A DNA stretch of 64,000 nt from positions 17,548,001 to 17,612,000 of the forward strand of contig CM075987.1 in assembly GCA_038087875.1 (NCBI GenBank). Reading direction: 5' to 3'. Below are positions 952 to 64,000 of this stretch, one piece after another. The notes under the pieces are model-generated. The model saw nothing but the letters and a program-made list of their open reading frames with translations, was not told where the DNA came from and made no database searches. Position 1 is the stretch's first letter, and the number at the start of each line of letters is the position of its first letter. Origin of the DNA: Malacoraja senta. Taxonomy: Eukaryota. A program made the translations under genes and the position numbers.

Positions 952-1454
952 ACAACCCTCCATGTTTGAGGAGGTGACGAGTGTGGGACGGTGGATGTTT
1001 ATTCCTCTATTCCCTCTATTCCCCCTCCTCCCCCACCCCTCTTATTTTCCCTGTTTGTGAAATATATAAGTGACTTGGTTGTAAATATAGGCAGGCAGAT
1101 TAGTAAGTTTACAGGTCAGACTAAAATTCAGACACAACCTGCCCACCTTTGCCTTCCGTCAGTTGACTCTCAGACTGTGTGGGTACCTTACCCCTGGGTA
1201 AGTGTACACTACCACAGTTGCCCTCATTGGCTCTCATCCCCAGGGAACTCTGGTAGATTAGACACATGTAGTATTCCTTTCATAAATCCATGCAATCTCT
1301 GCCCAACCCTGCCATTCATGTCAAGGTGATATGTTATTGCATCTTTCACTGTTGATCCCAGTATAATCCCTACCACTGACATCTGACAATCCAGAGTCCC
1401 TTGTTACCTCTGTCCCTCTTTCCAATACAGTCAGCTCACACTTGCTGCCCTCCA

Positions 1455-2019: not shown

Positions 2020-2400
2020 AGTTCGAATTGAATTAGACTTTATTAATCCCCTTATCCAGAAGAAATTCAGATGTCCTTGCAGCACACTAATAAAATATAA
2101 CATAGTATTAAAAAGAAGTTCAAAACACAAAAACATCCCCCCACAGTGGTTCCCACCGTGAGGGAAGGCACAAAGTCCAGTCCCCATCCTCTTGTCCACC
2201 CAGAGTCGGGCCCACTGAGGCCTCCACAGTCGCCGCCACGGCGCCCGATGTTCTCGCCGGGTGATGGTGCTCCGGCGTCGGGAGAACCCCCAGCGGCTTG
2301 GGGTACCAGGAACGACCACCTTCCCACCGAAGACGCGGCTTCCAAGCCAACAGACCGCGCAGGATGGAGCTCCACACACTTGCAATCTGGGATCTCTTGC
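2020..2400 (-). mobile_element. Short non-autonomous retroposon, hairpin-core copy A (Rex1-type tail)
   Basis: GC-rich body, hairpin at 2136-2165, U-rich stretch, tail ggggattaataaagtctaattcaattc. Confidence 0.6.
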
Positions 2401-2409
2401 TGAGATGAC

Positions 2410-2920
2410 AAACAGTAACGGGCCCAGTACCGAACCCTGAGGCACATCACTAGCCACAGGCATCCAGTCCAAATAACAACCTTCCACCATCACCCTCTGC
2501 TTCCTTCCATGGAGCCAATTTGCTATCCATTCAGCTACTGTATCCCTCCTTGGATCCCATGCGATCTAACCTTCCAGAGCAACCTACCATGCGGCACCTT
2601 GACGAACGCCTTACTGAACTCCATGTACACAACATCTACAGCTCTGCCCTCATCAATCTTATGGTCACGTCTTCAAAAAATTCAATCAGATTTGTGAGAC
2701 ACGACCTCCCATGTACAAAACCATGCTGACTGTCCCTAATCAGATGTTGCCTATAGTCATAGGGTCATAGAGTGATACAGCGTGGAAACAGGCCCTTCGG
2801 CCCAACTTGCCCACACCGGCCAACAAAGTCCCAGCTGCACTAGTTCCACCTGCCTGCATTTGGTCCATATCCCTCCAAACCTGTCCTATCCATATACCAG
2901 TCTAACTGTTTCTTAAATGC
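2410..2920 (-). mobile_element. CR1 fragments (RT region and 3' end)
   Basis: VASDVPQGSVLGPLLF RT motif; 3' tail ctgtatcactctatgacc. Confidence 0.75.
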
Positions 2921-3983
2921 ATGTACGTCTTATCCCTCTATACTTATCCACCTATACTTTGTTCCTGCCACTACGTTTCTGCAGTTAACATAACATAGCA
3001 CAGCACAGGAACAGGCCCTCCAGCCCACAATATCTGTGCTCAACATGATACCATATTAACCTAATGCCCTGCCTGCACGTAATCCATATCCCTCCATTCT
3101 CTGCATTTCCACGTGCCTATCTAAAGCCTCATTCATGTCACTATCGTATGAGGCATAGATAAGGTAGACAGTCTGAACCCCTTCATCAAATACTTGGCTC
3201 TAATGTGAGAGGAACAAGGTGCCAAGTGAAAAGGAAACAGGAAATCGGATGAGGGGAGAAGAGGAGGAGTTATAGGTAAAGCCAGAGGGACGGATATGAT
3301 GAAGGGGAAACATACGGCTCAGGGATGGGAGATGACCATACAGAAGAGAGGAAAGAAGCATGTTGACTAGAGTGTTGGGAGATGGTGGGAGAAGTGAATA
3401 TGGAGACAGGGAAGCGAGGACCAGGGTAGGTATCTTGGCATTGCAGAATTTAATTGCATCTTGGTGGAACCAGTCTGTTGCTGAAGGTGCTCCTCAGTTT
3501 GACCAGTGTGTCACGGAGGGAGTGAGCTGTATTGTCCAGGATGCTCCGCAGTTTGAGGAGCATCCTCCCCTCCAAGACCACCTCCAGTGAATCCAACTCC
3601 GCCCCCAGGATGGAGCCAGCCTTGCTGATGAGTTTCTTGATCCTATTGGCGTCCGCAACCTTCGCCCTGTTGCCCCAGCACACGGCAGCGAAGAAGATGG
3701 CACTGGCTACCACCGATTGGTAGAACATCTGCAGCATCTCACTGCAGATGTTGAAGGAGCTGAGCCTTCTCAAAAAAGTACAGCCGTCTCTGTCCCTTCT
3801 TGTACAGGGCCTCAGCGTTCCTGGACCAGTCCAGTTTACTGTCCATGTACACTCCAAGTTAATTGTACTCCCTGGTAAACTGCTCATCCACACCATTGAT
3901 GGAGATAGGGGACAGGGTGTTCCTCTCCTCCTAAAGTCCACCACCAACTCCTTAGTCTTGCAGGTGTTGAGCTGCAGGTGATT

Positions 3984-6475
3984 TATTTATTTAGCAAATG
4001 CGAAGTCCTTTAGCCAAGCAGTTGCCTCTTGATCTGCTGTATGAAGGGAGACAAGTCCTCCTTTAAGTCTTTTTTGTGGGCATGCTTCAATGATGTGTTG
4101 CATTGTTTGCTGCTCTCCACAAGCACACCGTGGGGTTGGGCTGCTGCCCCATTTGTGAAGGCTGGCCAAGCAGGGGCCATGTCCAGTCCTGAATCTATTC
4201 AGCGTCGTCCACTGCTTCCTTGGGAGATTGGTGCCAGGGACCGGTAGAGTTGGGTCTGACACCAGATGTTTATTTGGGACGTCCTTGGACTCCCATTCCT
4301 TTTTCCAAGCTGATTGGGTGATGAAATCAGCTGGTGGTGGGTTCTTCCAAATTGGTCGTCTAGATGGAAGTCGAGCAGTGGGTGGGTTGAAGATGTCCAT
4401 GTGAATTGGCAGATGAGGGGAGTTTTTGGTCTTTTGGAGCATCATTTGAGTGAGGGCTACTCGCTGGATGTGTGGAGGGGCTATATTGGATAGGACAGGG
4501 AGCCAGGGGAGTGGTGTTGAGCGGATTGTTCCTGTGATGATCCTCATCGTTGAGTTCAATTGGGTGTCCACATGGTGTGTGTGGGATGACCTGGACCAAA
4601 CAGGGGCGCAATATTCGGCTGAAGAAAATGCAAGGGCTAGTGCTGAAATGCGCAGTGTGGGGGCTGCTGCCCCCCACTTTGAGCCAACAAGCTTACTGAG
4701 GAGATTGTTTCTGGACTTCACCTTAGCTGCTGTCCTTTTGAGATATTCCTTGAAGGATAGGGTCCTGTCAAGGGTCACTCCGAGGTAGGTTGGAGTGGGG
4801 GCATACTTCAGTTTGGTCCTGCTCAGATAGATGTTTGGTTCTCTTGTGGCTTCTGCATTATGGAGGTGGAACACACTGGAGACCGTTTTTTCTGGGCTTG
4901 GTTTTAGGCGCCAGGTTTTGCAGTACTCGTCTAGTTTAACAAGGTCTTCATTGAGCACCTGTTCCAATGTACCAAAGTCTGGTGCTTGGAAGGCCAAACA
5001 GATGTCATCTGCATAGATGAATTTATGCAGGAGACTGCGGGACCTGGAGCTGATGCAGCGGGGTCCGGAGCGGAGACTGCGGGACCCGGGGCTGATGCTG
5101 TGGCGGGCCGTCTCGGAGCGGAGACGGCGTTCCATCTTTCGGCGGCAGCGACATCACCACGGAGGTCCGCTGGACTGGAGGGCGGCATCTTCGGCCTGGA
5201 TCGATCGCCTCAGCGCAGAGGGAGAACAAGGAGAGAAGAGACGGAGACTAAGACTTTGCCTCCATCACAGTGAGGGTGTGCTTGGTGAACTCACTGTGGT
5301 GGATGTTTAATTTGTGTTTATTGTATGTTTTGTTATTATTGGTTCTGTGTATGACTGCAGGCATCACAATTTCGTTCAGACCGAAAGGTCTGAATGACAA
5401 TAAAGGAAACTTGAACTTGAACTTGAACTTGCGGGATTTGGTGGTGGGTAGGTCATTTGTGTAAAGGTTGAACAAGGTTGGGGCTAAAACTGACCCTTGC
5501 GGGAGCCCATTCTTCTGTGTTCTCCATGCACTCTTGTTCTGTCCAAGGTGAACTCTGAACCTGCGGTTGGAGAGCAGAGATTTGATGGTTTCTGATGCCC
5601 AGGCAGGGAGTGCTTTGGTGAGTTTTAGGAGGAGGCCTTGGTGCCACACAGTGTCATAGGCTGCGGTGAGATCTAGGAACACTGCCCCGGTCTTCAGTTT
5701 GTTCTCGATGCCGTGTTCAATGCAGGTGGTTAGGGCCAGAACTTGTTCTCCTGTACTGCGGTCCTTGCGGAAACCTGCCTGGTCCACACTGAGAATCTCT
5801 TCTACTCCTGGAGATATACGTTGTAGTATAAGGCGTTCTAAGATTTTGAGTGGGACGCAGAGTAGAGAGATTGGGCGGTAGCTTGCTGGTAGTTTTTCGT
5901 CTTTGCCAGGTTTTGGTATAGCAATGACTTTTGCTGTCCGCCATATCTTTGGAATGGAGTTAGTCTGTATGGCCCTAGTGTAGAGTTGGGTCAGCCAGGT
6001 TAGAGCTCGGGGGCCCAGGTGTTTCATGAACTCTGGAGAGATGTTATCATAACCTGCTGCCTTTCCACATTTCAGGCCCTGCAGGACCTTCTCCAGTTCA
6101 GCCACCTCGAAGAGCTCAGGGTTTCTTTCCTTTCCAGGTGTTCGTCGAAGTGTCCTTAGCTCTGTTGCGACAGCTCTTCGTGGACTTGTCTTGGGGTGCT
6201 TTTGCAATATTCAGTAGGTGGAATGCAACCTGGTTGGGTGTGACAGGAGGTCGGCTTTGGGTGGGAGGTTTCTGTGCAGCTCCTAGGCGGCGGATGAGGC
6301 TCCAGCATTTTCTGCTAGAGTGGGTGAAGTTAAGCTCTGCTACTGTCTCCTCCCATTTCCTTTGCCGAGATGAAGATAGTGATTCAATGAGATGTTCTGC
6401 TATCTCAGGGTCCCCTGATATTTTGTAGGTTTGTAGGAGGGCAGCGCTTTCTCCATCCAGGCATGGGACGTAGAG
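3984..6475 (-). mobile_element. Vingi/Ingi-type (I-group) LINE, 5'-truncated and disrupted
   Basis: RT motifs YRPISLL, FLDLTAAYDTVW, GLPQGSVLAPTLF, IYADDIC; C-terminus WGAAAPTLR..EYCAPVW and C-x-C..H..C. (TAAA)n tail directly after the stop; TSD ggtgatt at 3977-3983 and 6476-6482. Confidence 0.8.
5024..5428 (+). mobile_element. Short non-autonomous retroposon, hairpin-core copy C, inserted into the Vingi RT
   Basis: Splits KF|IYADD. Hairpin at 5261-5303; terminal GAAA-loop hairpin ttcagacc-gaaa-ggtctgaa; tail tgacaataaag+(aacttg)n; target tgaa(c/t)tt mimics the tail. Confidence 0.75.
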
Positions 6476-6810
6476 GGTGATTCAGCCCACACCACTCAAC
6501 AAAGTCGTTGACTACACCTCTGTATTCAGCTTCCCTCCCCTCACTGATGCAACCCACAATTAGTCATCTGAAAACTGAATGAAGCAAGGAGTTGTGGAGC
6601 GAGCGGTCTCTGCAGAAGGGAGAAAGGGGTGGGGATGGGACGAGGTGACTGGTGTCATCAACTGATTTCAGGAGAACATGGTGGCATAAAACTGGCATTG
6701 CCTCCCACAAACGGTGGTTGTCACTCACTCAGCTGTGAACTGTAAATTAGTTTGATGAGCTTGCTTCTAAGCTGGAGACTTGTTCTGGTATGTGGGTTTG
6801 GAGTCTGCTG

Positions 6811-7295
6811 AATAGACAATAGACAATAGGTGCAGGAGTAGGCCATTCGGGCCTTTGAGCCAGCACCGCCATTCAATGTGATCATGGCTGATCATCCACA
6901 ATCAGTACCCTGTTCGTGCCTTCTCCCCATATCCCCTGACTCCGCTATCTTTAAGAGCCCTATCTAGCTCTCTCTTGAAAGTATCCAGAGAACCAGCCTC
7001 TGAGGCAGAGAATTCCACAGACTCACAACTCTTTGTGTGAAAAATAATGTCCTCATCTCCGATCTAAATGGCTTACTCCTTATTCTTAAACTGTGGCCCC
7101 TGTTCTGGACTCCCCCAACATCGGGGACATGTTTCTTACCTCTAGTGTGTCCAAACCATTAATAATCTTATATGTTTCAATAAGATATCCTCTCATCCTT
7201 CTAAATTCCAGAGTTTACAAGCCCAGCCGCTCTATTTTATCAACATATGACAATCCTGCCATCCCGGGAATTAACCGTGTAAACCTACACTGAAT
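6811..7295 (-). mobile_element. CR1 (HER1-like) 3' end
   Basis: CR1 C-terminal coding sequence, 3' UTR ggctcaaaggcccgaatggcctactcctgcacc and (ctattgt)n tail. Confidence 0.85.
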
Positions 7296-7788
7296 GACAG
7301 GTTGGACTCGAGGGGCTGAATGACCCTGCCTGTTCCCAGCTGTTCTTCACTTTGACTAAACGTCCAGGTGCTAAAACAAGTGCAGACCTGCATCTTCTAT
7401 CCCTGCATGAAGCGAGGAGGTAGACAATGATGGTGTTTGCTGGGCCGACCTGCATCGCTTATTGTTGAAGAGTAACCTGAAGACATTGTCATTCATGCTG
7501 AAAGTGGGTTAGGTTTGGAAATGAACGTGACTTGGTACAGCACAGAAAGAGGCCCTTCAGCCCACCGTGTCCATGCTCACCAGGTTGGCATACTGGACTA
7601 GTCCCAGTTGTCTGCTTTGGGCCCATTGCCCTGTAAACCCTATCCATGTCTCTGTCCAAATGTTTCTTGTGCGGCCCTGGATGGCAACATCCTTGTGGCA
7701 GAGAGGAAATAACTGAAGAGAGGAGAGGACGGAGTGTTATATGGAAGGAAGGCGGGTGTGAGTGCCAGAGTTTGCCGATAATCCTCAC

Positions 7789-7867
7789 CGACTGCAAGTC
7801 CTTCTCCGTCACCAGGGTCCCGTTCGAGTCGTAGTGAGACACCTGAAACCCCTTCGGCACCAGGAAC
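7789..7867 (-). CDS. ADAM-family metalloprotease, coding exon 4 (prodomain)
   Basis: Acceptor ctctctctgtttgtgccgcag and donor gtgagg; 79 nt, phase 2 to 0. Reads (K)FLVPKGFQVSHYDSNGTLVTEKDLQS and joins exons 3 and 5 in frame. Confidence 0.9.
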
Positions 7868-7929
7868 CTGCGGCACAAACAGAGAGAGGAGGGATAGGTT
7901 TGACCGCACTGTGAACTGTGGAAAGACGG

Positions 7930-8300
7930 TGGTCCCCAGACAGTCACCACTGCTGCCCTACAAGGATGCCCTCATGCCCCTTACTGTACCCGCTCTACAC
8001 TCACGACTGTGTGGCCACACACTGCTCTAACCCATCTACACGTTTGCAGATGACACTGCTGTGGTGGGCCGGTTCTCGAACAATGACAAGATGGCGGACA
8101 GGAAGGAGACGTGTAGTAAGATGGTGTCAAGACATCAATCTCTCCGTTCATCTCAGCAAGACACAGGAGCTGCTCCTCCCACTTCAGGAAAGCACACACC
8201 AGTCGGCTTCAATGGTGCCAAAGTGGAGATCGTCGAGAGCTTCAAGGTCCTAAGTGTAAACATCAACAACAATTTGTCCTGGTCCAACCACACTGTAGCT
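7930..8300 (+). mobile_element. Degenerate Rex1 RT fragment
   Basis: Remnants of PLLYPLYTHDC, FADDT and WCQD.NLS..SKTQEL. Confidence 0.65.
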
Positions 8301-8599
8301 AGAGCCGATCTTCCAACCTACCTGATTAAAGACCTCGCACTTTTAAATCTGCAGTTTCTCTGTTACTGTGATACTGTAACACTATTTTCGTCACTCTGAT
8401 ATTTTTCGCTTTGCACTACATATTGAACTTGTGTGCGACTTGTCTTTTCCTCTCTGACTTTTGATCCACTGCCCACATATCAGACTCCCCCTCACCTGTG
8501 TCCACCTATCACTTGCCAGGCTTTATCCTGCTCCTCCTCTCTTCCAGCTTTATTCTCCCCCCTCCCCCACCGACAAACAGTCTGAAGAAGGGTCCTGAC

Positions 8600-8880
8600 A
8601 AAACATCACCTATCCATGTTCTCCACAGATGCTGCCTGACCCGCTGAGTTACTCCAGCACTCTGTGAAACGTCACCTATCCATGTTCTCCACAGATGCTG
8701 CCTGACCCGCTGAATTACTCCAGCACTCTGTGAAACTTCACCTATCCATGTTTTCCACAGATGCTGCCTGACCCGCTGAGTTACTCCAGCACTCTGTGAA
8801 ACGTCACCTATCCACGTTCTCCACAGATGTTGCCTGACCCGCTGAGTTACTCCAGCAGCCTGTGAAAGGTCACCTATCCA
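8600..8880 (+). repeat. 66-bp tandem repeat (about 4.2 copies) derived from a Penelope-type terminal repeat
   Basis: Units start at 8600, 8666, 8732, 8798 and 8864: gaaacgtcacctatccatgttctccacagatgctgcctgacccgctgagttactccagcactctgt. Confidence 0.9.
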
Positions 8881-9153
8881 TTTATCGGCCTTTAATCCAT
8901 TCAATTTACCCAACACCACTTCCCGACTAACCTGGATTTCACTCAGTTCCTCCATCTCCTTTGACCCGCGGCCCCCTGCTATTTCCGGCAGATTATTTAT
9001 GTCTTCCTGGTTCCGTCTTCACTAAGGAAGACATAAATAATCTGCCGGAAATAGCAGGGGGCCGCGGGTCAAAGGAGATGGAGGAACTGAGTGAAATCCA
9101 GGTTAGTCGGGAAGTGGTGTTGGGTAAATTGAATGGATTAAAGGCCGATAAAT
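8880..9153. repeat. Perfect 129-bp inverted repeat (fold-back) at a CR1 5' junction
   Basis: 8880-9008 is the reverse complement of 9025-9153, with a 16-nt spacer. Confidence 0.92.
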
Positions 9154-10733
9154 CACCAGGGCCAGATAGGCTGCATCCCAGAGTACTTAAGGAAGTAGCT
9201 CCAGAAATAGTGGATGCATTAGTGATAATTTTTCAAAACTCTTTAGATTCTGGAGTAGTTCCTGAGGATTGGAGGGTAGCAAACGTAACCCCACTTTTTA
9301 AGAAGGGAGGGAGAGAGAAAACGGGGAATTACAGACCAGTTAGTCTAACATCGGTAGTGGGGAAACTGCTAGAGTCAGTTATTAAAGATGGGATAGCAGC
9401 ACATTTGGAAAGTGGTGAAATCATTGGACAAAGTCAGCATGGATTTACGAAAGGTAAATCGTGTCTGACGAATCTTATAGAATTTTTCGAGGATGTAACT
9501 AGTAGAGTGGATAGGGGAGAACCAGTGGATGTGTTGTATCTGGACTTTCAGAAGGCTTTCGACAAGGTACCACATAAGAGATTAGGATACAAACTTAAAT
9601 CACACGGTATTGGGGGTTCAGTATTGATGTGGATAGAGAACTGGCTGGCAAACAGGAAGCAAAGAGTAGGAGTAAACGGGTCCTTTTCACAATGGCAGGC
9701 AGTGACTAGTGGGGTACCGCAAGGCTCAGTGCTAGGACCCCAGCTATTTACAATTTATATTAATGATCTGGACGAGGGAATTGAAAGCAACATCTCCAAG
9801 TTTGCGGATGAAACTAAGCTGGGGGGCAGTGTTAGCTGTGAGGAGGATGCTAGGAGACTGCAAGGTGACTTGGATAGGCTGGGTGAGTGGGCAAATGTTT
9901 GGCAGATGCAGTATAATGTGGATAAATGTGAGGTTATCCACTTTGGTAGCAAAAACGGGAAGGCAGACTATTATCTAAATGGTGGCCGATTAGGAAATGG
10001 GGAGATGCAGCGAGACCTGGGTGTCATGGTACACCAGTCATTGAAAGTAGGCATGCAGGTGCAGCAGGCAGTGAAGAAAGCGAATGGTATGTTGGCCTTC
10101 ATAGCAAGAGGATTTGAGTATAGGAGCAGCGAGGTTCTACTGCAGTTGTACAGGGTCTTGGTGAGACCACACCTGGAGTATTGCGTACAGTTTTGGTCTC
10201 CAAATCTGAGGAAGGACATTATAGCCATAGAGGGAGTGCAGAGAAGGTTCACCAGACTGATTCCTGGGATGTCAGGACTTTCATATGAAGAAAGACTGGA
10301 TAGACTTGGCTTATACTCGCTAGAATTTAGGAGATTGAGAGGGGATCTTATAGAAACGTACAAAATTCTTATGGGGTTGGACAGGCTAGATGCAGGAAGA
10401 TTGTTCCCGATGTTGGGGAAGTCCAGGACAAGGGGTCACAGCTTAAGGATAAGGGGGAAATCCTTTAAGACCGAGATGAGGAAAAACTTTTTCACACAGA
10501 GAGTGGTGAATCTCTGGAACTCTCTGCCACAGAGGGTAGTTGAGGCCAGTTCATTGGCTATATTTAAGAGGGAATTAGATGTGGCCCTTGTGGCTAAAGG
10601 GATCAGGGGGTATGGAGAGAAGGCAGGTACGGGATACTGAGTTGGATGATCAGCCATGATCGTATTGAATGGCGGTGCAGGCTCGAAGGGCCGAATGGCC
10701 TACTCCTGCACCTATTTTCTATGTATCTATGTT
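9009..10733 (+). mobile_element. Young CR1 LINE, 5'-truncated, RT ORF open to the stop at 10640
   Basis: ORF 8961..10640 has NYRPVSLTSV, YLDFQKAFDKV and GVPQGSVLGP; the catalytic motif reads FADET instead of FADDT; (ttctatg)n tail. Confidence 0.93.
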
Positions 10734-11217
10734 CTCTACAGGTACTGCCTGAGTTACTGCAACACCTTGTGTTCTTGTGTGTAAACTAGCATCTGCAGCT
10801 CCTTGTGTCTAGACTGTAGTCATGTCTGCACGGTTTGACTGGGTAGCCCGCAGACTCATGCTTTTCACTGTATCTTGGTGCAGGTGACAGTAATAAACCA
10901 ATATGTACCGAGTGGAGACAGTTGACGCATCCCTTACTTTACCCTGGTGCAGTTCACAGCCAAGACTCAGGTCTGCACCGACTGTGGTGACTGGAATAGT
11001 CCACGTATGACTGCACTCAGCTTTTGATTTGAGTTTAGTTTATTGTCATGTGTATGAGGTACAGTGTGAGCTGCAACATGTTGGCACGCCCAGTGTGTCC
11101 TGGCACACAGCCACCGTCACAAGGGGTGGCAGGCGTTCCCTCGCTGAGTGCCTGCAGCGGTCGGGCCGGGCAGACAGTGTGGCCTCTCCAGCCCGTCACA
11201 TCTTCCTGAGGGGCGTC

Positions 11218-11520
11218 TGACAGCCGGAGGAGGGTTTACACGCGTGTGTCCACCCCTGAACAGCCGTGTTTACACACACGTGGCCGCCCCCTGAACAGCC
11301 GTGTTTACACATGTCGCCCGCCCCTGAACAGCCGTGTTTACACGTCGCCAGCCCCTGAACAGCCGTGTTTACAGCACGTTCCGGCCCCCTGAACAGCCGT
11401 GTTTACACGCGTTACCCGCACCCTGAACAGCCGTGTGGAGGGTTTACACGCATGTGCCTGCCCTCTGAACAGCCATGTTTACACACATGTTCCCCACCTG
11501 CCTCCACAGCCGTGTTCACT
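11218..11520. repeat. Minisatellite with conserved 22-nt core cccctgaacagccgtgtttaca and variable linkers
   Basis: Cores at 11253, 11288, 11321, 11352, 11386, 11420 and 11462, plus partial flanking copies. Confidence 0.9.
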
Positions 11521-11523
11521 CAC

Positions 11524-11600
11524 TTGTTGCGACGAAGATCCAGGATCAGCCGCTCCCCCGGGACCTCCACCACGATGCTGACATGCTCTGGATGCGTGCC
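11524..11600 (-). CDS. ADAM-family metalloprotease, coding exon 3 (prodomain)
   Basis: Acceptor ctgctttgttacag and donor gtgagt; 77 nt, phase 0 to 2. Reads GTHPEHVSIVVEVPGERLILDLRRN(K), the ADAM g..l.LdL.rN motif. Confidence 0.9.
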
Positions 11601-11811
11601 CTGTAACAAAGCAGATGGTCAGTGGCTGCCCTCTCCCTGGTCAGTCCCACTGGGCAATGGGTCAAGTGGCCACACGCCCTGTGCAAGGGTCAAGCAGATG
11701 GCCAGTGGCCACGAGGCGGTGGGAGAGCTGTCAGTGTGGGCACAGGAGAACGTTATCTACGATTGCAACGGGATGTCCATCAACCGGGCAAGTGGGCTGA
11801 GGAATGGCAGG

Positions 11812-12152
11812 TAGAGTTTAGTTATTAGTCAGTGTTAGTTTTAGAGATACAGCATGTAAACAGGCCCTTCGGCCCACCATGTCCACACCGACCATTGGTC
11901 AACGGTACAATCGTTCCATGTTATCCCATTTTCTCACTCACTCCCACACACTAGAGGCAATATACAGAAGCCAATTAACCTACAAACCTGCACGTTTTTG
12001 GAATATGCGAGGAAACCAGAGCACCCGGAGCAAACCCACACAGTCGCAGGGAGAAGGTGAAAACTCCGTACAGACAGCACCCGTTGTCAGGATCGAACCT
12101 GGGTCTGAGGCGCTAGAGGCAACAACTCTACCAGTGTGCCACTGTGATGCCC
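11812..12152 (-). mobile_element. HE1-type tRNA-derived V-SINE
   Basis: Head with box A/B (ggttcgatcc), V-domain-like gggtttgctccgggtgctctggtttcctc, and a CR1-like 3' end. Confidence 0.8.
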
Positions 12153-12179
12153 AATGAATTAAACAATTTATTTTAATTT

Positions 12180-13190
12180 AGATAAATGCAAGCCGTTGCA
12201 TTTTGGGAAGACAACCTAGGGCAGGACTTGCATAGTAAATGGTAGGGCCGTGAGGTGTGTTGTAGAGCTGAGGGATCTGGGGATACAGGTACATTATTCC
12301 CTGACGGTGGGGACACACGTGGACAGGGTGGTGAGAAATGGACAAAAGACAATAGGTGCAGGAGTAGGCCATTCGGCCCTTCGAGCCAGCACCGCCATTC
12401 AATGTGATCATGGCTGATCATCCCCAATCAGTACCCCGTTCCTACCTTCTCCCCATATCCTCTGACTCCGCTATCTTTAAGAGCCCTATCCAGCTCTCTC
12501 TTGAAAGTATCCAGAGAACCGGCCTCCACCGCCCTCTGAGGCAGAGAATTCCACAGACTCACAACTCTCTGGGTGAAGAAGTGTTTCCTCGTCTCCGTTC
12601 TAAATGGCTTACCCCTTATTCTTAAACTGTGGCCACTGGTTCTGGGTTATGAATGGGTTCAGCCTACCTGTCAGGTCAGGGTATTGAGCACAGGAGCTGG
12701 GACATCATGTTACAATCGTAAAATACATTGATCAGGTCGCATTTGGACCTTTGTGCCCAGTTCTGGACAGTCTGTTAAACAGGAAGGATGTCATGAAACT
12801 GCAAATGGTTCAAAAAAGATAATGAAGATGTTACTGGATTTGGAGGGTTGAGTGGGATAGGCTGCGATGTTTCTCCCCGCAGCATAGAATATTGAGGGGT
12901 GACCTTATAGAGGTTTATAAAATCACAAGGGACCATTCACAGTCTTTCACCCCGGTTGGTGGTTCTAACGGCAGAGGGCACGGCTTTAAGGTGAGAGTGG
13001 AAAGATTTAATAGGAAGCTGAGGGGCAACTTTTTCAGGTTGATGGGTGTATGGAATGAGCTGCTAGAGGAGGTAGTTGATCCAGGTACGATACTAATATT
13101 CAAGACATTTGGGCAGGTATGTGAATGGGAAAGGTTTTGTGGGATATGGGCCAAACGCAGACAAATGGGACTAGCTTGGTTTGGCATCTA
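12180..13190. mobile_element. Old + strand CR1 fragments with a nested - strand CR1 3' end (12345-12645)
   Basis: RGDLIEVYKI...GVWNELLEEVV; typical CR1 3' UTR. Confidence 0.7.
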
Positions 13191-13319
13191 GAGTTATATT
13201 GACCAACCTCGCTGTGAAAATGTAGCCCATGGGTCCTTTAAAATCTCTCTCCTCTCACCTAAACCAGTGTCCTCTAGTTTTAGACAGCCATACTCTGGGG
13301 AGAAATCTGGCTAACTATG

Positions 13320-14005
13320 CCCCTCATGACTTTATACACCTCTATAAGGTCACCCCTCATGAATTTATACACCTCTATAAGGTCACTCCATGATTTATAC
13401 ACCTCTATAAGGTCACCCCTCATGAATTGATACACCTGTATAAGGTCACTACATGATTTTATACACCTCTCTAAGGTCACTTCTCCGTGGATTGACACCT
13501 TGTCGTGGTGGAGAAGCTTGTGTGGTCCTGTGATCCTGAGAGCGATGCCGACTGGAGCGATGCTCCTGGTACGGCAACCCATGGCGGTAAGGTCGAGGGG
13601 GAGGACTCTGACAAAGAGCAACCCAACCAAGACCTCAACGGTGGAACAGGCAGAGGACGATGGGTGACCTTAGTGGAGCGGCACAACGGCTGGGAAGGCG
13701 GATGAAGGCTGCAGCAGAAAAGGGTCTTCGGTCGTCTTGGACTCCATGCCACTGGATCCTGCCCCAGATCTGTCAAGAACCGTGTGGTGGCTGTCTGTGC
13801 ACCAGTCTCCCCACGTTAAACAAAGTCATGCACAGGCGTCCTCCATATAGGGAATAGCACCCTGGAGACACCCATGTTCAGCCATGACCGAAGGGGGTGT
13901 AAGAACGTCACTCCATGACTTTATGCACCTCTATAAGGTCACCCCATGACTTTATACAACTGTAAGGTCACTCCATGACTCTATAAGGTCACTACATGAC
14001 TTTAT
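13320..14005. repeat. About 30-bp minisatellite (ccctcatgactttatacacctctataaggtca) amplified from CR1 coding sequence, split by an insertion
   Basis: Repeated MRGDLIEVYK units in ORF 13280..13630; the array resumes at 13907. Confidence 0.85.
13482..13906 (+). mobile_element. RTE-derived non-autonomous element (SINE-like), copy 1
   Basis: 5' end caccttgtcgtggtggagaagcttg...acccatggcggtaaggtc resembles the RTE/BovB 5' UTR; (aag) tail; TSD gtcact. Closely similar copy at 30359-30759. Confidence 0.7.
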
Positions 14006-14268
14006 TGTGTGCTTTTCACTGTACCTCAGTACACAAGGCCATAATAAACCTAAACCAATCGCATGACGTGCTCCCTGTGTCTGGGCGCCCAGAACTACAC
14101 ACTGTACTCCAAGTGTGGTCTCACCAATGACGTGTGCAGTCCGTGTGCTAAACCCACCACTGTCTCTGTGTCAGTGTGCCTCCCGTGACTGTGCTGGGGA
14201 CAGGGGCAGGCGGGTCGGCGCCCGTCTCGCCCGTGCCCTCCGACTGTGGAAGGTGACGGAGGAATTAC

Positions 14269-14381
14269 CTGGGGAACAGTCGCTAGACTCCGCTTCCTCT
14301 TCCCAGAGACCACGTAAGGGAACACAAATCTGTAATCCGTCAGCTCGTCCAGAAGGCTCTTCCTGTGGAGTCCGTCTGCAG
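14269..14381 (-). CDS. ADAM-family metalloprotease, coding exon 2
   Basis: Acceptor tttccctttgtatcccaag (alternative in-frame cag acceptor at 14375) and donor gtaatt; 113 nt, phase 1 to 0. Reads (A)ADGLHRKSLLDELTDYRFVFPYVVSGKRKRSLATVPQ. Duplicated at 60788-60900. Confidence 0.85.
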
Positions 14382-14981
14382 CTTGGGATACAAAGGGAAA
14401 CAGAGGCCGGTGAGCCTCACATCAGTGGCACAATAAACAATAGACAATAGGAGCAGGAGTAGGCCATTCGGCCCTTCGAGCCAGCACCGCCATTCAATGT
14501 GATCATGGCTGATCATCCCCAATCAGTACCCCGTTCCTGCCTTCTCCCCATATCCCCTGACTCATCTCCGTTCTAAATGGCCTACCCCTTATTCTTAAAC
14601 TGTGGCCCCTGGTTCTGGACTCCCCCAACATCGGGAACACGTTTCCTGCCTACGGAAACTTCTGGTGAGGATTCTTCAATGTAGCAATTACCCCCATTTG
14701 GGGAAGACTGGGTTAATTAGGGACAGTCAGCATGGCTTCGTACACGGCAGGCCGTGTCTTATTAACTTGATCAAATGTTTTGACGGGGTGACAAAGGTGA
14801 TCGATGAGGTTCAAGATTCAAGATTCAATATAAACAAAGACACGTTAGTTAGGAAGTTTGCAGATGACACCAAGATTGCTGGGATTGTGGGCTTTGGGAA
14901 GGCTGTCAAAGTTTACAGTGGGATATAGATCAGCTCCAGAAATCAGCAGAGAGATGGCAGATGGAGTTAATGTCAGCAAGT

Positions 14982-15365
14982 GTAAAGTAAAGTAAAGTAA
15001 ATTTATTTATACAGCACTTTTCAATCAATTTCAATCAAAGAAGCCAAAGTGCTTTACAGAGAAAATTATCCATATAAATAATAAAAAGAGGTAGAAAAAA
15101 AAAGACACAACACACTATAAGAGATTCAACACAAACATCCCCCACAGCAGAATCTACACTCTCCACTGTGAGGGAAGGCACCAAACTGTCAAGTCCTCCT
15201 CCTCCTCCTAGTCCACCCGAGGTCGGGGCCAGCCAGTCTGAGGCCACCGCAGCCAGTCGCCGCAACGGCAGCCCGATGATTGTAGGCCCACCCGCCGGGA
15301 AGCTGGAACACCGGCATCGGGTGGAAAAGTCCTCAGCAGCCTTGAAGTGTCTGGAGTGCTGCACA
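14982..15365 (-). mobile_element. Short non-autonomous retroposon, hairpin-core copy B (L2-type tail)
   Basis: Hairpin at 15138-15175. Tail tgtaaagcactttggc...aagtgctgtataaataaat(ttact)n matches the L2 3' end at 63275-63356. Confidence 0.7.
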
Positions 15366-15917
15366 AGGGTAGGTCAAATGTGAGGGGGAAATGCAGGGCT
15401 GCCAACTCTCACGCTTTCAGCGTGAGAATCACGCCTTGGAGCCAATTCTCACGCCCTCACGCTGATGACCGAGTTCTCACGCTGAGTTCAGTCCCTGTGC
15501 AGTTTGTCCCTTTGCGCCGCGTGCCAGCACGATCTGTCCGGTCTGGGGAAGCCCGTCGGTTGCCGGCTGTGAGTGACGTCGCGTCTCTTCTCTTCACTGT
15601 TGGTCGAATGTGCAGCTGCCGACAACATGAAGCAGCCGGAGATGGAACTAACCCGGTGAAGCGGTTGTAAAACATGGGGAGGGGGAGCGACGACGACCAC
15701 AATTAGGCCAAACATCTAGGACAGGGTTTGGACTACGGGCACACGGCCCGTAACCCGAAACACCGCGTATTGTTTTCAATTCGTTTTCGCGGGGTCGGGG
15801 CAGGCGAGCCGAGCTGAGAACTGCGGCCGGTCCCTGGGACGGGAGCTGATCTGGGAACAGCAGCCAGTCCCTGGGCACGCAGAATGGCAACTTGATCAGT
15901 ATGGACCAATTGGGCCC

Positions 15918-16552
15918 AAGGAAGAGAGAGGGGGTGGAGAGCGAGGAGAGAAGGGGAGAGAGGGGGGGGGAAGAGAGAGGGGTGGTAAAAGAGAGAGGAG
16001 AAAGAGGGAGAGAGGGGGGGGGGAGAGAGAAACGGGGGGAAGAGGGAGAGAGGAGGGCAAAGAGAAAGGAGATGGAGAAAAAGAGGGGAGAGAGAGGGTA
16101 GGGAGGGCAAGGGGGAGAGTGAGGTGGGAGGAAGAGAGGGGGAAGAGAGAGAGGAGGCGAGAGAGACAGGGAGAGTGAGGTGAGGGGAGAGAGGAGAAAG
16201 AGGGGGGAGAGAGAGAGGGGGAGAGAGAATGGAGAGAGAGGGGAAGAAAGGAGAGGGGGGAGAGAGAAGAGAGGGAAAGGGAGAGAGAGGGGGGAGATGG
16301 GAGAGAGAGGGGGTGAGAGGAGAGAGAGGGAGTGAGAGGGAGTGAGAGCAGAGAGAGGGGAGAGAGAGAGGGAGGGGAGATGGGGGAGAGAGGGGGTTAG
16401 AGGAGAGAGAGCGGAAGAGAGGGGAGAGAGAGAGGGAGAGAGAGAGGGGGGAGAGTGAGGTGGGAGGGAGAAAGAGGGAGAGAGAGGAGAGAGAGTGGGG
16501 GAGAGAGAGTGGGGGAGAGAGAGAGGGGGAGGGAGATAGGGGGATATAGAGG
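15918..16552. repeat. About 630-bp polypurine (GA-rich) low-complexity tract
   Basis: Almost exclusively G/A on the + strand. Confidence 0.95.
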
Positions 16553-16796
16553 CAGGGCTGCCAACTCCCATGCATTGAGCATGAGAATCACGCATTTTGC
16601 CAAATTTCTCACGCTCTGTCGTGAGAAACTCTGTGATCAACGAAAATTTCAAAACTAATATCAACTGCATGGGCCACGGGAGTTGGAAGCAGAAGCAGCG
16701 GCGGGGACAGATGCGGACGGGGAGCGGGGATGACGAGTGTTTGCTGGGATGGCGAGTGTTTGCTGGGCTGGCGAGTCGCTCACTGCAACTCCGGCC

Positions 16797-20971: not shown

Positions 20972-22039
20972 ATGAGTAAATTGCCTCCAGCTGTGAGCCC
21001 TCAGAGAGCTGTGAATAAGCTGTCGAAAAAGTTTGAAGCAGAAGTTACCTCTGAAGTCTCTGAAGTGGCTGCAGAAATGGATACAAGATCTAAGAAAGAC
21101 TTTGATGACTTGAAGAAATCAATGAAAAATTTGAAAGATGAGATCTCGGATAATAGGGTGGAAGATAAGAAGGAAATGAAGGAAAATTCGGCAAAAATGA
21201 TGGAAGGAATGGAGATGATGAAGGATTTAAATGCTGGTAACCAGAAGAATATGACGGATTTACTGGACATTATGAATAAACGAATTGATGAGGTGAAAGA
21301 TGGACTATCAGAGAAAATGGATAAGATGGATGTAATTACTACGGATAAGTTCACGGATGTACTTGAAACAGTAGCTGCAAGTATGCACACAATTACGGAA
21401 TTGGAGAAAAATACGGCTCGACTGGTTGAAGACATGGCGAAATTGGGGCAAGAACATGAGCAAATGAGGCGAGAAAACGAACAAGCATCACTACAAATGG
21501 GGACTCAATTAGAGAAAGTCTCAGTCAAATGCCTGGACCTGGAAGCTCGCTCTAGACGCCAGAATTTGAGAATTCTTGGTGTTTCAGAGGGGGCAGAAGG
21601 GGAACAGGTACGTGAATTTGCCATGGGCTTGTTGAAACAACTGTTGAATCTTTCCAAGGAACCGAAAATCGAAGTGGCTCATCGTGTCCCAAGATTTGGA
21701 AAAAGATCTGATGCGGGAAAAGCTTATCCACGACATATTATAGTGAAATTTCGAGATACTGCAGAACTGGAATATGTTATGAGTAAAATCAAATATGGTG
21801 TACAATTGCGGCTGGACAAGGACACTATTAAGATATTCAGGGACTACCCACATGAAATTGTGCAAAAAAGAAACAAATTTGATAAGGTTAAAGATCTTTT
21901 AAGAGGGAGAGAAGGGGTCAGATTTGGGGTTTTTTATCCCGCGAAAATGCGTATTTCCTTTAATGGTCTTGAAAAGTCATTTGTTAAGCCTGAAGACGCA
22001 TTCAAATATGCCCAAACGATTGTTGAAAAACAGAAATAA
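20972..22039 (+). CDS. L1 ORF1p (coiled coil + RRM + CTD RNA-binding protein)
   Basis: 355 aa; motifs LEARSRRQNLRILGVSEG, IEVAHRV, PRHIIVKF, IFRDY and FYPAKMRI. Confidence 0.92.
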   Translation: MSKLPPAVSPQRAVNKLSKKFEAEVTSEVSEVAAEMDTRSKKDFDDLKKSMKNLKDEISDNRVEDKKEMKENSAKMMEGMEMMKDLNAGNQKNMTDLLDIMNKRIDEVKDGLSEKMDKMDVITTDKFTDVLETVAASMHTITELEKNTARLVEDMAKLGQEHEQMRRENEQASLQMGTQLEKVSVKCLDLEARSRRQNLRILGVSEGAEGEQVREFAMGLLKQLLNLSKEPKIEVAHRVPRFGKRSDAGKAYPRHIIVKFRDTAELEYVMSKIKYGVQLRLDKDTIKIFRDYPHEIVQKRNKFDKVKDLLRGREGVRFGVFYPAKMRISFNGLEKSFVKPEDAFKYAQTIVEKQK

Positions 22040-22848
22040 AAGGGAGCTTTGGCAGATCCGAATAATTCTCAGCTATGTTTTGTCTGGGGATAGTTACACT
22101 GTTATCTCTGGAATGTTGAATCAAGGACATTTTCTGTTCAAAACGTGTAAACAACTTTACAGCTGGAATATGAATCAGAAAATAATTGCTTATTGATTAA
22201 AATGTTATAACCAATTGTAAGAACTTATCCTATTAACAACTTTAAAAGTTATGCAGGTTAGATTAGAATACTAACAAAAAAAACAAAAAAATAATGAACT
22301 AACATACTAATATGAATTTTTAATAAATTGTAACCTTGTCTATAAGCGGGAGGAGGGGATGAGAAACGAGCTCCTGGCTTATGTCCAGGAGCACGTCTCG
22401 TTAACCCCTTCAACCAACAGTTGATTCTTATTGAAATCAAAAATATTGGTTTAATAATTAAACTCTGATATATATATATGTTATAAGGAAATATCAGGGT
22501 AAAATTGTATTATATATCTGAATGTGAGGCCTCGTTTTAATATTTTAATATGTTATGATTAACTAAGAGAGCGGAGCTAGTTGAGTAACAACGCAATGGA
22601 AGTCAACACAAGGTTTTTTCCCACCTACAGGTGGGTCACTCGCTACAGTGCCGATTATATCAGACACTGTAGCCTCACTTTTTTAGTTTTTTTTTAATCA
22701 CATAAAATCACTTGTTTGTGTTTTGTGTTTAGTGATAAGAGTAATAAGGACATACCAGCAAAAGTTAATAATTCAAAAACTCCCCCAATACCTAAAGACC
22801 TGGGACATGGACGCACCACAAGATTCAAAGGTACTATAATTATTCAAA

Positions 22849-41109: not shown

Positions 41110-42017
41110 TAGAAACATAGAAAATAGGTGCAGGAGGAGGCCATTCGGCCCTTCGAGCCAGCACCGCCATTCATTGTGATCATGGCTGATCGTCCCCTAA
41201 CAATAACCCGTGCCTGCCTTCTCCCCATATCCCTTGACTCCACTAGCCCCTAGTGCTCTATCTAACTCTCTCTTAAATCCATCCAGTGACTTGGCCTCCA
41301 CTGCCCTCTGTGGCAGGGAATTCCATAAATTCACAACTCTCTGGGTGAAATTATTTTTTTCTCACCTCGGTCTTAAATGACCTCCCCTTTATTCTAAGTT
41401 GGAGATCCAACGCAGAAGCAGGCCCTTCGGCCCATCGAGTCTGCAACGACCACGATCACCACTAGCACGAGCCTGCACAATAGGGACAATTATCCTACAA
41501 ACCTGTACAAGTCAAGTCATGTTTATTTGTCACATACACATACAAGATGTGCAGTGAAATGAAAGTGGCAATGCCTGCGGGATTGTGTAATAACTACTGA
41601 ACTACAGAACCAGTATTTCCATTTTTTTTTGAGCCATAACAGTATGGTGAGATCAGAGTTTACAGTCCTGATGGCCTGTGGGAAGAAACTCCGTCTCATC
41701 CTCTCTGTTTTCGCAGCGTGACAGCGGAGGCTTTGCTTGACCGTTGCAGCTGGAACAGTCCGTTGCTGGGGTGGTAGGGGTCCCCCATAATGTTGCTGGC
41801 TCTGGATCTGCACCTCCTGGTGTATAGTTCCTGCAGGGGGTGAGTGTAGTTCCCATAGTGCGTTGTGCATAGTACAGCTTTGGAGTGTGGGAGAAAACCC
41901 ATGCGGGTCACGGGGAGAACGTGCAAACGCCGTACAGACAGCACCTGTAGTCAGTATTGAACCCGAGTCTCTGGCGCTGTGAGGCAGCAACTCTACCGCT
42001 GCGCCACTGTGACGCCC
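41110..42017 (-). mobile_element. CR1 3' end (41110-41398), then an HE1 SINE interrupted by a Rex1 3' fragment (41508-41870)
   Basis: Rex1 TERMRRSFFPQAIRTVN with (gactt)n tail; SINE head near 42017. Confidence 0.75.
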
Positions 42018-55371: not shown

Positions 55372-55551
55372 ATTTTGTTTTCCACTTCCAACTTTCACAT
55401 CTATCTGAACGCAAAGGATGCCATTAATTTGGGAAAGGGTGTAGGAGCGATTCACCCTGGGCTTGTGGGAGACGCTGCATAGGCTGGGACTTTGTTCTTT
55501 GGAGCGAGGGAGGCTGAGGGGTGACAATATTGAGGTGTACATGATCATGAG

Positions 55552-56720: not shown

Positions 56721-57302
56721 TATTTATTGAAATGTCCAACACTGGAGAGCATAACTTTAAAGTGAGAGGGGGAAGTTTAACGGAGATGTGTGGGGCAGGT
56801 TTTTACACAGAGGGTGGTGGGTGCCTGGAACGCGCTGCCAGGGTTGGTGGTGGAGGCAGATACGATTGTGGCGTTTAAGAAGCTTTTAGATTGGCACATG
56901 GAGGCGTGCCAATCAGAAACCTTGGCTAACTGGGGAAGTTGGTTCTCTATTGAGAGCCCGGAATGCTGCATTAAAATCTGGGGACAATGCAGCATACAAG
57001 TTGGCACGGAGTAATCGGTCCCGGGGGATCAGGGAAGCGAAGAGGCTGTATGTACAAAAACTGAACAGCTACTTCGCAGACGACAAAGACGCACGTCGCT
57101 TGTGGCAGGGATTCCATACCATCACTGACTACAAGCCCCCCCCACTGCGGATATGCCAAAATGACCCCTCTCTACCAGACAAACTGAACGAGTGTTACGC
57201 TTGTTTTGAGGGTAAAAATACCACCCAGATACATGCACTCCTGCCATCACCCAGCGACCAGTCACTCACACTGTCCACAGCCGGAGTTAAAAAGGCCTTT
57301 GT

Positions 57303-59500: not shown

Positions 59501-59959
59501 ATAGAAACATAGAAACATAGAAAATAGGTGCAGGAATAGGCCATTCGGCCCTTCGAGCCTGCACCGCCATTCAATATGATCATGGCTGATCATCCAACTC
59601 AGTATCCCGTACCTGCCTTCTCTCCATACCCCCTGATCCCTTTAGCCACAAGGGCCACATCTAACTCCCTCTTAAATATAGCCAATGAACTGGCCTCAAC
59701 TACCCTCTGTGGCAGAGAGTTCCAGAGATTCACCACTCTCTGTGTGAAAAAGTTTTTCCTCATCTCGGTCTTAAAGGATTTCCCCCTTATCCTTAAGCTG
59801 TGACCCCTTGTCCTGGACTTCCCCAACATCGGGAACAATCTTCCTGCATCTAGCCTGTCCAACCCCATAAGAATTTTGTACGTTTCTATAAGATCCCCTC
59901 TCAATCTCCTAAATTCTAGCGAGTATAAGCCAAGTCTATCCAGTCTTTCTTCATATGAA
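59501..59959 (-). mobile_element. Young CR1 3' fragment
   Basis: Protein identical to the C-terminus of ORF 8961..10640; TSD catcac (59495-59500, 59983-59988). Confidence 0.88.
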
Positions 59960-63274: not shown

Positions 63275-64000
63275 CAAGTCAAGTCAAGTCAAGTCAAGTC
63301 ACATTTATTTATATAGCACATTTAAAAAACAACTCGTTGGCCAAAGTGCTTTACATTTGTTATAAGAATAATATAAACAAACAAACTACATACATATATA
63401 CATATAGCCCTCGCTCAGAGGATGTCAAGAAAGGCTTGGGAGTATAGATAAGTTTTTAGTCTTGACTTAAAGGAGTCGATGGAGGGGGCAGTTCTGATGG
63501 GAAAGGGGATGCTGTTCCACAGTCTAGGGGCTGCAACCGCAAAGGCGCGGTCGCCCCTGATCTTATGCCTAGACCGCGGGATATTCAGCAACCCCAAGTC
63601 GGCCGATCTGAGGGACCTGGAGGTGGAGTGGTGGGTGAGAAGACTTTTAATGTAGGTGGGGGCAAGCCCATTGAGGGCTTTGTAGACATGGAGGAGGATC
63701 TTGAAATGTATATGGAACCGCACAGGGAGCCAGTGCAGAGAGGCCAGGATCGGGGTGATGTGGTCCCTTTTTCGGGTGCCCGTCAGGAGTCTCGCTGCGG
63801 CGTTTTGGACCAGTTGCAGGCGGGACAGGGAAGATTGGCTGATGCCAGTGTAAAGGGAGTTGCAGTAATCTAGGCGGGAGGAGTTAAATGTGTGGATAAT
63901 CTTTTCGAGGTCATCAAAGTTGAGGAATTGTTTTATTTTAGCTATCGTCCGAAGCTGGAAGAAGCTAGCTTTTACCACGGCATTGACTTGTTTGTCAAAT
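63275..64000 (-). mobile_element. L2 LINE 3' portion
   Basis: SRLDYCNSL, LQLVQNAAARLL, HITPILASLHWLPV, FAVAAPRLWNS; (gactt)n tail. Confidence 0.9.

What the first reader, a model, noticed from the sequence alone, without database searches (positions are those of the whole stretch)
2136..15175. Three short retroposons share a covarying RNA hairpin but end in different LINE tails
Seen: copies A (2136-2165 -), C (5261-5303 +) and B (15138-15175 -) all read tgcc(t)-TCC[c/a]TCAC[a/g]GTG-loop-[CA/TG]CTGTGG[g/t]GGA-tgttt. Stems are 13-15 bp and loops 3, 15 and 8 nt, with compensatory pairs (C-G vs A-U at stem position 4; GG/CC vs GAG/CUC at the top). The bodies are GC-rich and otherwise dissimilar. 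Tails differ: L2-type (B, matching the L2 at 63275), Rex1-like tgacaataaag with a GNRA hairpin (C), and a second Rex1-like ggggattaataaag (A). Inference: a non-autonomous superfamily with a structurally selected core that has switched partner LINEs. I cannot match it to a named SINE core.
Basis: partly seen in the sequence, partly recalled or inferred. Interest (0 to 1): 0.7.

Follow-up and report, generated by a model that had tools for sequence, protein, structure and literature searches.

The report
Tail-swapping retroposons sharing an RNA hairpin
Three short jumping-DNA copies in what looks like a shark- or ray-type genome share one RNA hairpin but borrow their ends from two different kinds of copy-and-paste elements, which gives a concrete handle on why such parasites keep a conserved core.

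Summary
The hairpin is real in all three copies. A motif trained on A and B alone finds C above all 40 shuffles. All 39 cells of a 13-pair stem pair, with 2 two-sided and 4 one-sided changes, and the sense strand folds 6-10 kcal/mol better than the antisense. One correction: A and B are not dissimilar, they share at least 116 nt of body (73%). The copies are therefore modular: A = body 1 + Rex1-type tail, B = body 1 + L2 tail, C = body 2 + Rex1-type tail. B's tail matches coding L2 copies in the window. C's tail matches a coding Rex1-like copy; A's tail is linked only through C's. The A family is highly repeated in three public runs. None of four coding L2/Rex1 3' ends in the window carries the hairpin. 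No tRNA head or Pol III box was seen, internal T4-T9 runs argue against Pol III, and the 5' heads were not recovered. Best reading: a non-autonomous retroposon group that works like a SINE superfamily, with an RNA-selected core. Covariation across many copies is only suggestive (p about 0.08). Repbase and Dfam could not be searched.

The parts
2025..2402 (-). Copy A: GC-rich body 1, core hairpin, U-rich linker, Rex1-type tail and short microsatellite; its 5' end abuts a cut CR1-like RT piece
   Evidence: (CR1 loose ends at 2403)
2171..2402 (-). A body (GC 0.65 up to the hairpin end), homologous to B body; ends in a purine-rich tract
2133..2170 (-). A core hairpin: 14-bp stem 2166-2153/2149-2136, 3-nt loop, basal C.U mismatch and two more pairs
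2025..2100 (-). A tail, similar to C tail; Rex1 type by indirect evidence
   Evidence: A vs C p 5e-4; A vs coding Rex1-like tails not significant
5025..5430 (+). Copy C: body 2 beginning inside a 21-nt tandem repeat (5'-truncated), core hairpin, U-rich linker, Rex1-type tail; inserted into an RT reading frame (3990-6210, -) with no target duplication
5257..5306 (+). C core hairpin: 14-bp stem, 15-nt loop
5345..5430 (+). C tail with GAAA-tetraloop hairpin and 6-nt microsatellite; similar to the tail of the coding Rex1-like copy at 41505-41880 (-)
   Evidence: p 0.001
14982..15345 (-). Copy B: body 1 (5'-truncated relative to A), core hairpin, U-rich linker, L2 tail; inserted into a CR1-like RT piece with a 6-bp target duplication
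15135..15180 (-). B core hairpin: 15-bp stem, 8-nt loop
14982..15060 (-). B L2-type tail with its own stem-loop and 5-nt microsatellite
63275..64000 (-). Coding L2-like 3' end, candidate partner type for B; short 3' UTR without the hairpin
41505..41880 (-). Coding Rex1-like 3' end, candidate partner type for C; short 3' UTR without the hairpin
   Evidence: homologous to the C-terminus at 59963-60320, whose RT part carries PF09004

Best explanation
A, B and C belong to a group of non-coding, non-autonomous retroposons built from modules: a GC-rich body, a purine-rich tract, a conserved 13-15 bp hairpin, a U-rich linker and a LINE-derived tail with a microsatellite. The RNA is probably made by Pol II or by read-through rather than Pol III (inferred). 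The tail is recognised by the ORF2 protein of an L2 or a Rex1-type LINE, and the RNA is copied in by target-primed reverse transcription (established for L2 tails; inferred for these copies). Recombination or template switching has exchanged modules on both sides of the hairpin: A and B share a body but not a tail, A and C share a tail type but not a body (seen in the sequence). The hairpin is kept as RNA structure on the sense strand (suggested by the pairing pattern). Its constant part is the lower stem and basal mismatch, while the loop is free, so I think it most likely binds a host or LINE protein at the stem base and so stabilises or positions the RNA for capture of reverse transcriptase in trans, whichever tail is attached (inferred, about 45% among functions). 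Other functions: RT pause or template-switch site about 20%, 3' processing or stability barrier about 20%, pri-miRNA-like substrate about 10%, ribozyme under 5%.
For: Non-chance core. 39 of 39 cells paired in 13 aligned columns: 7 invariant, 4 changed on one side, 2 on both sides; 7 G.U cells in 5 columns and no A.C. Sense versus antisense folding: -23.8/-13.8, -23.0/-14.1, -24.4/-18.3 kcal/mol. In contigs of four runs, 5 of the 40 variant rows shown fall in A's stem; 4 keep the pair in A's context and the fifth (G>A at 2156) gives A-U with the majority U at 2146. A/B body homology. B tail matches L2 tails (p 5e-4 for both window L2 copies) and C tail matches a coding Rex1-like tail (p 0.001). 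In run X12, 3 contigs match only the core (about 2129-2186), with loose ends of about 50 unlike letters reported at both 2129 and 2186, i.e. the core in a further context. 7113-8604 contigs laid on the stretch in each of 3 runs (this count includes the CR1 flanks), with stem variants in up to 112 contigs. The sequence model finds no hairpin in the two coding L2 and two coding Rex1-like 3' ends or anywhere else in the window (3 hits at E <= 1e-12, the other 9 at E >= 0.63). No protein relatives of the body frames. T runs of 4-9 lie between hairpin and tail in all three copies, and no A or B box was found.
Against: Only three full copies. Variant linkage is unknown, 29 variant rows were not shown, 2 of the 5 stem variants lie in one CpG, and 5 of 5 pair-keeping changes has p about 0.08. 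The stem was defined on the sense fold, which favours G.U over A.C. The 5' ends were not recovered, so non-autonomy and the promoter type are inferred. A's tail does not significantly match a coding Rex1-like tail in the window, and C's tail also scores against an L2 tail (p 0.003, probably through the shared microsatellite). Upstream body variants often break A's predicted pairs, so structure outside the core is not supported. The Rex1, L2 and CR1 labels rest on recalled peptide motifs plus PF09004/RVT_1 hits, not on a phylogeny.
Confidence: 0.6

Rival explanations
1. A and C are 5'-truncated copies of autonomous Rex1-type LINEs with unusually long, structured 3' UTRs, and the hairpin is an ordinary UTR element of that lineage. 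B is a chimera that picked up an L2 tail.
For: All three copies look 5'-truncated or cut. U-rich linkers resemble LINE 3' UTRs. Rex1 coverage is among the highest in rays (PMC13343379, passages). Bipartite ORF-less LINE derivatives had been reported only from RTE, Ingi, Vingi and R2 (PMC5786205).
Against: 364-406 nt without a coding trace. The two coding Rex1-like and two coding L2-like 3' ends in the window have short UTRs and no core. B still requires exchange across clades.
Confidence: 0.2
2. A classical Pol III SINE superfamily (like CORE, V, Deu or Meta) whose tRNA or 5S head is simply truncated in these three copies.
For: A shared central domain with variable LINE tails defines such superfamilies (PMC4824008, passages). 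The heads were not recovered.
Against: No tRNA, no Rfam match, no A/B box and internal T4-T9 runs that should stop Pol III before the tail (terminator rule from established knowledge). The core lies next to the tail, at least 200 nt from any head, whereas the Meta domain follows the head directly.
Confidence: 0.1
3. The hairpin is a neutral or DNA-level quasi-palindrome, kept symmetrical by template-switch correction and shared by descent; it may mark a recombination hot spot but has no RNA function.
For: Few copies; the variant test is not significant. Module junctions flank the hairpin.
Against: DNA-level correction should give Watson-Crick pairs and no strand bias, yet an invariant U.G pair is kept, all imperfect pairs are G.U on the sense strand, and the sense strand folds 6-10 kcal/mol better.
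Confidence: 0.1

Closest known systems
SINE superfamilies with a conserved central domain (CORE, V, Deu/Nin, Ceph, Meta, UCON3), including shark/ray HE1 (V), SacSINE1 (Deu) and CmiSINE (CORE)
   Same: Short non-coding retroposons with a shared internal module and exchanged LINE tails (PMC4824008 passages; PMC5499810 parts 1-2 of 6; PMC7245038 passages).
   Different: No tRNA/5S/7SL head or Pol III box in the 364-406 nt held. T runs lie before the tail. The core is a short covarying hairpin next to the tail, not a 60-150 nt domain behind the head. The core model does not hit the window's tRNA-like-headed SINE piece at about 41886-42017 (its HE1/V-SINE likeness is recalled).
Bipartite non-autonomous LINE derivatives (RTE, Ingi/RIME, Vingi, R2) and bird SINEs with GC-rich heads of unknown origin
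   Same: Non-coding, LINE-tailed, no small-RNA head needed; tails can be exchanged (PMC5786205 parts 1-3 of 5).
   Different: The tails here are L2- and Rex1-type, clades not listed as producing such elements in that paper. No body match to a LINE 5' UTR could be shown (none is available in the window).
L2 3'-tail stem-loop (UnaL2, ZfL2-1/2-2)
   Same: B's tail and the window's L2 copies fold into a matching terminal stem-loop. ORF2 recognises such stem-loops stringently (PMC4176376, abstract only).
   Different: The shared core is a separate hairpin 75-120 nt upstream of the tail motif; its loop is not conserved, whereas L2 recognition uses the loop for specificity.
SINE2-5_NV / Rex1-24_NV pair (sea anemone)
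   Same: A precedent for a short element with a Rex1 tail (PMC3747384 table passage).
   Different: tRNA-headed, cnidarian, no L2-tailed sibling or hairpin core given there.

Membership tests
SINE (SINEBase definition) | Head from a Pol III RNA (tRNA, 7SL, 5S) with internal promoter | tested here: inconclusive
   None in the parts held; 5' ends are truncated, so a head cannot be excluded
SINE (SINEBase definition) | Transcribable end to end by Pol III (no T4+ run before the tail) | tested here: not met
   A has T5, T4, T5, T4; B has T9, T5, T4; C has T4 downstream of the hairpin
SINE (SINEBase definition) | Short, non-coding, interspersed, many copies | tested here: met
   364-406 nt held; no protein relatives; thousands of contigs in 3 of 4 runs laid, for A only; full length unknown
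SINE (SINEBase definition) | LINE-derived 3' region and simple-repeat tail | tested here: met
   B vs L2 p 5e-4; C vs coding Rex1-like tail p 0.001; A only via C
SINE superfamily (CORE, V, Deu, Ceph, Meta, UCON3) | Sequence match to one of the named domains | not testable with these tools
   SINEBase supplement unavailable; exact 8-11 nt core words absent from supplements of PMC13343379 (1 file), PMC5786205 (1 file) and PMC4824008 (2 of 3 files), a weak test; from recall none of the domains resembles the core
SINE superfamily (CORE, V, Deu, Ceph, Meta, UCON3) | Shared internal module with different LINE tails | tested here: met
Bipartite non-autonomous LINE | 5' part derived from the 5' UTR of a LINE | not testable with these tools
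   No genome held; no L2/Rex1 5' UTR found in the window; 5' ends not recovered
Ordinary L2 or Rex1 3' UTR | Motif lies between the ORF2 stop and the tail of coding copies | tested here: not met
   0 of 4 coding 3' ends in the window (63275, 42529, 41531, 60500) carry it; other lineages not testable
Self-cleaving ribozyme or other Rfam RNA | Covariance-model match | tested here: not met
   0 gathering hits in 64 kb; only E >= 1 noise over the copies
TPRT insertion | 3' microsatellite, 5' truncation, clean target site | tested here: met
   B has a 6-bp duplication in a CR1-like piece; C restores the host RT frame with no duplication; A's target is not resolved

The most novel reading that the evidence does not exclude
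A previously undescribed, very abundant group of Pol II-type, head-less retroposons in cartilaginous fish whose only universal part is a covarying RNA hairpin that recruits a factor common to L2 and Rex1 retrotransposition, so that bodies and tails can be shuffled across LINE clades. It would be a conserved retroposon core whose constraint is demonstrably RNA structure.
Probability: 0.3. Interest if true: 0.72.

Novelty: new variant of a known kind. Interest (0 to 1): 0.5.

Why it matters
Why SINE-like elements keep conserved central domains while swapping tails is an open question; three untested models are listed in PMC5499810. A 40-nt core with visible compensatory pairs can be tested directly by disrupt-and-rescue mutations in an existing L2 trans-retrotransposition assay. 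It would also add L2- and Rex1-dependent elements without a Pol III head to the known non-autonomous retroposons, and it flags an abundant repeat that automatic annotation probably splits into 'L2', 'Rex1' and 'unknown' pieces. It remains selfish DNA, with no sign of a host function.

Tried and rejected
No whole genome is held, so no genome-wide copy set, head reconstruction or R-scape test. Pattern scans: viral contigs 6 hits (that pattern could not match A's six-G arm) and 0; metagenomes 7 hits; GTDB 0 and 21. The 13 viral and metagenome hits lack the flanking layout; 20 of the 21 GTDB hits are one cyanobacterial coding stretch and one is a gammaproteobacterial hairpin without the layout. 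All were rejected as chance. Phage BLAST: none. Protein searches with body frames: none, and 3 repetitive proteins judged spurious. Rfam and ARAGORN negative. Summed depth is lower over the tail and the 5' body than over the core, but contig depth cannot rank parts, so it was not used. A 14-nt match of A's 5' end to 8148-8161 lies in a Rex1-like RT piece and was judged chance. A borderline fourth site ending at 1190 (+) scores 16, equal to the shuffle maximum, and has no tail. RNAalifold on A+B missed the core because of MAFFT misalignment and found 1 two-sided change in 40 pairs, so it gives no support for conserved body structure. Resemblance to iron-responsive element, SECIS, Y RNA, ENE, hammerhead and HDV folds was considered from recall and rejected: no Rfam match and no conserved loop. 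Earlier scan findings: none by sequence or place or by words; one search gave 5 loose analogues in other genomes that were not used. Literature: 9 searches listed no paper describing this element; most subscription papers, Repbase Reports and Dfam are outside the library.

Full report
Setting. The window is repeat-rich vertebrate DNA with many CR1-like, L2-like, Rex1-like and L1-like pieces. I take it to be a cartilaginous fish, probably a skate or ray. This is an inference from recalled repeat types and from the report that CR1-group elements fill 22-34% of elasmobranch genomes and that Rex1 coverage is among the highest in rays (PMC13343379, passages). No genome is held.

The observation. 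It occurs 3 times in the window and never in 100 shuffles, but that pattern was written after seeing the copies. With arms from A and B only, C scores 24, the next best site 16, and the best sites of 40 locally shuffled windows 11-16. Folding gives stems of 14, 14 and 15 bp and loops of 3, 15 and 8 nt (A, C, B), with 0, 1 and 6 of 200 shuffles as stable. Anchored on the central CAC, 13 pair columns align: 39 of 39 cells pair, 7 columns are invariant (one is a U.G wobble), 4 change on one side and 2 on both sides. All 7 imperfect cells (5 columns) are G.U and none is A.C. The sense strand folds 6-10 kcal/mol better than its complement. The stem was defined on the sense strand, so this bias is partly built in.

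A correction. The bodies are not all dissimilar. A and B align for 116 nt at 73% and none of 1000 shuffles reaches that score, while C's body is unrelated to either (p 0.32, 0.12). The linkers between hairpin and tail are U-rich but not significantly alike.

Tails. B's last 75 nt match both coding L2-like 3' ends in the window (p 5e-4 each) and fold into the same terminal stem-loop. C's tail matches the tail of a coding copy at 41505-41880 (p 0.001). That copy's last codons are homologous to the C-terminus at about 59963-60320, whose RT part carries RVT_1 and PF09004; I recall that combination and the peptide motifs as Rex1/Babar, with no tree built. C's tail also scores against an L2 tail (p 0.003), probably through the microsatellite. 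A's tail matches C's (p 5e-4) but not the coding Rex1-like tails (p 0.65, 0.80), so its label is indirect. The layout is thus A = body 1 + Rex1-type tail, B = body 1 + L2 tail, C = body 2 + Rex1-type tail, with the hairpin common to all.

Insertion sites. B (14982-15345) interrupts a CR1-like RT piece with a 6-bp target duplication. C (5025-5430) interrupts an otherwise open RT frame, which reads on once C is removed, with no duplication; it starts inside a 21-nt tandem repeat. A (2025-2402) abuts a cut CR1-like piece and its target is not resolved. These are the marks of target-primed reverse transcription with 5' truncation.

Other copies. A search for runs holding A listed 21 runs, 20 holding part of it. 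I laid 4 of them on 1950-2520 at 80% likeness. Three runs gave 7113-8604 contigs (CR1 flanks included), and summed depth over the core is of the same order as over the neighbouring CR1 piece; this shows a highly repeated family but is no copy number. Of 40 variant rows shown (29 more hidden), 5 lie in the stem: in RNA sense 2146 C>U, 2156 G>A, 2157 G>A, 2158 C>U and 2161 U>C. Four keep the pair in A's context; 2156 breaks A's G-C but forms A-U with the majority U at 2146. Linkage is unknown, two of the five are one CpG, and since 17 of 28 possible transitions keep pairing, 5 of 5 has p about 0.08. This is consistent with selection but not significant. Variants in the body often break A's predicted pairs. 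The fourth run held only 15 contigs; 3 of them match the core alone, and loose ends of about 50 unlike letters are reported at both 2129 and 2186, i.e. the core in another body and linker. The 5' head did not appear among the loose ends shown (811 hidden).

What it is not. No Rfam family or tRNA. No protein relatives of the open frames tested. A sequence model of the core hits only A, B and C; the other 9 matches have E of 0.63 or more, so the two coding L2-like and two coding Rex1-like 3' ends lack it. No A or B box was found, and T runs of 4-9 lie between hairpin and tail in every copy; by the usual Pol III terminator rule these would stop transcription before the tail that reverse transcription needs. 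Hits in microbial collections were chance.

Mechanism. Shown: modular layout, two tail types, insertion marks, a paired core. From established work: L2 ORF2 binds its cognate 3' stem-loop (PMC4176376, abstract), and SINE-like elements survive by template switching to new tails (PMC4824008, passages). Inferred: Pol II or read-through transcription, non-autonomy, and the role of the core. The constant features are the lower stem, a U.G wobble and a basal mismatch, while the loop varies from 3 to 15 nt. That fits protein binding at the stem base better than a ribozyme or a loop-reading protein. I put this whole reading at 0.6, a long structured Rex1 3' UTR with B as a chimera at 0.2, a truncated classical SINE at 0.1 and a DNA-level palindrome at 0.1.

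Comparison. It works like a SINE superfamily: a shared core with exchanged LINE tails. It is not filed as a SINE, because the Pol III test fails on the T runs and no head was seen. Chondrichthyan SINEs in the papers read (HE1, SacSINE1, CmiSINE) are tRNA-headed with V, Deu or CORE domains. Head-less bipartite elements were reported only from RTE, Ingi, Vingi and R2 (PMC5786205). One tRNA-headed SINE with a Rex1 tail is listed from a sea anemone. Nine literature searches listed no description of this element, and exact core words were absent from three papers' supplements (one file not searched). The SINEBase supplement could not be read, and Repbase and Dfam, where the families may already sit as separate entries, could not be searched.

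Verdict. A real, structured, shared core in a tail-swapping retroposon group; probably a new variant of a known kind; the function of the hairpin is testable but unproven. Interest 0.5.

Noticed in passing
window 20972-26637 (+) and about 50070-55375 (-): Two young L1-type LINE copies in opposite orientation, 96.8% identical over 5.3 kb, each with an open 1263-1266 aa ORF2 (endonuclease, RT, zinc finger); the first also has a 355-aa ORF1.
   Followed up: partly
window 3990-6210 (-): A nearly open RT frame with a C-terminal cysteine motif, interrupted only by copy C; recalled as Ingi/Vingi-like. It suggests C is a recent insertion.
   Followed up: partly
window 56900-60530 (+): A Rex1-like coding element broken by at least three later insertions, one a CR1-like piece at 59498-59959.
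   Followed up: partly
window 11523-11618 and 14269-14421 (-): Short open pieces that look like exons of a host gene, recalled as ADAM-metalloprotease-like; Pfam and PDB searches gave no support. A and B would be sense to it, C antisense.
   Followed up: partly
window 35309-37135 (-): Open frames of 329 and 210 aa resembling an LTR-retrotransposon integrase region (resemblance recalled, not searched).
   Followed up: no
window 15383-16617: GC-rich segment bounded by matching about 75-nt ends, possibly a DNA-transposon derivative, just 5' of B.
   Followed up: no
window 1148-1190 (+): Weak look-alike of the core, scoring at the shuffle maximum, without linker or tail; could be an old decayed copy or chance.
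   Followed up: partly
copies B and C: The purine-rich tract 5' of the core is predicted to pair with the U-rich linker 3' of it, extending the hairpin into a long irregular helix; low-complexity pairing, not tested against shuffles.
   Followed up: no
L007:1501-1533 and L011:1501-1533: A bacterial metagenome hairpin with a similar stem followed by U residues, probably an intrinsic terminator matched by chance.
   Followed up: no
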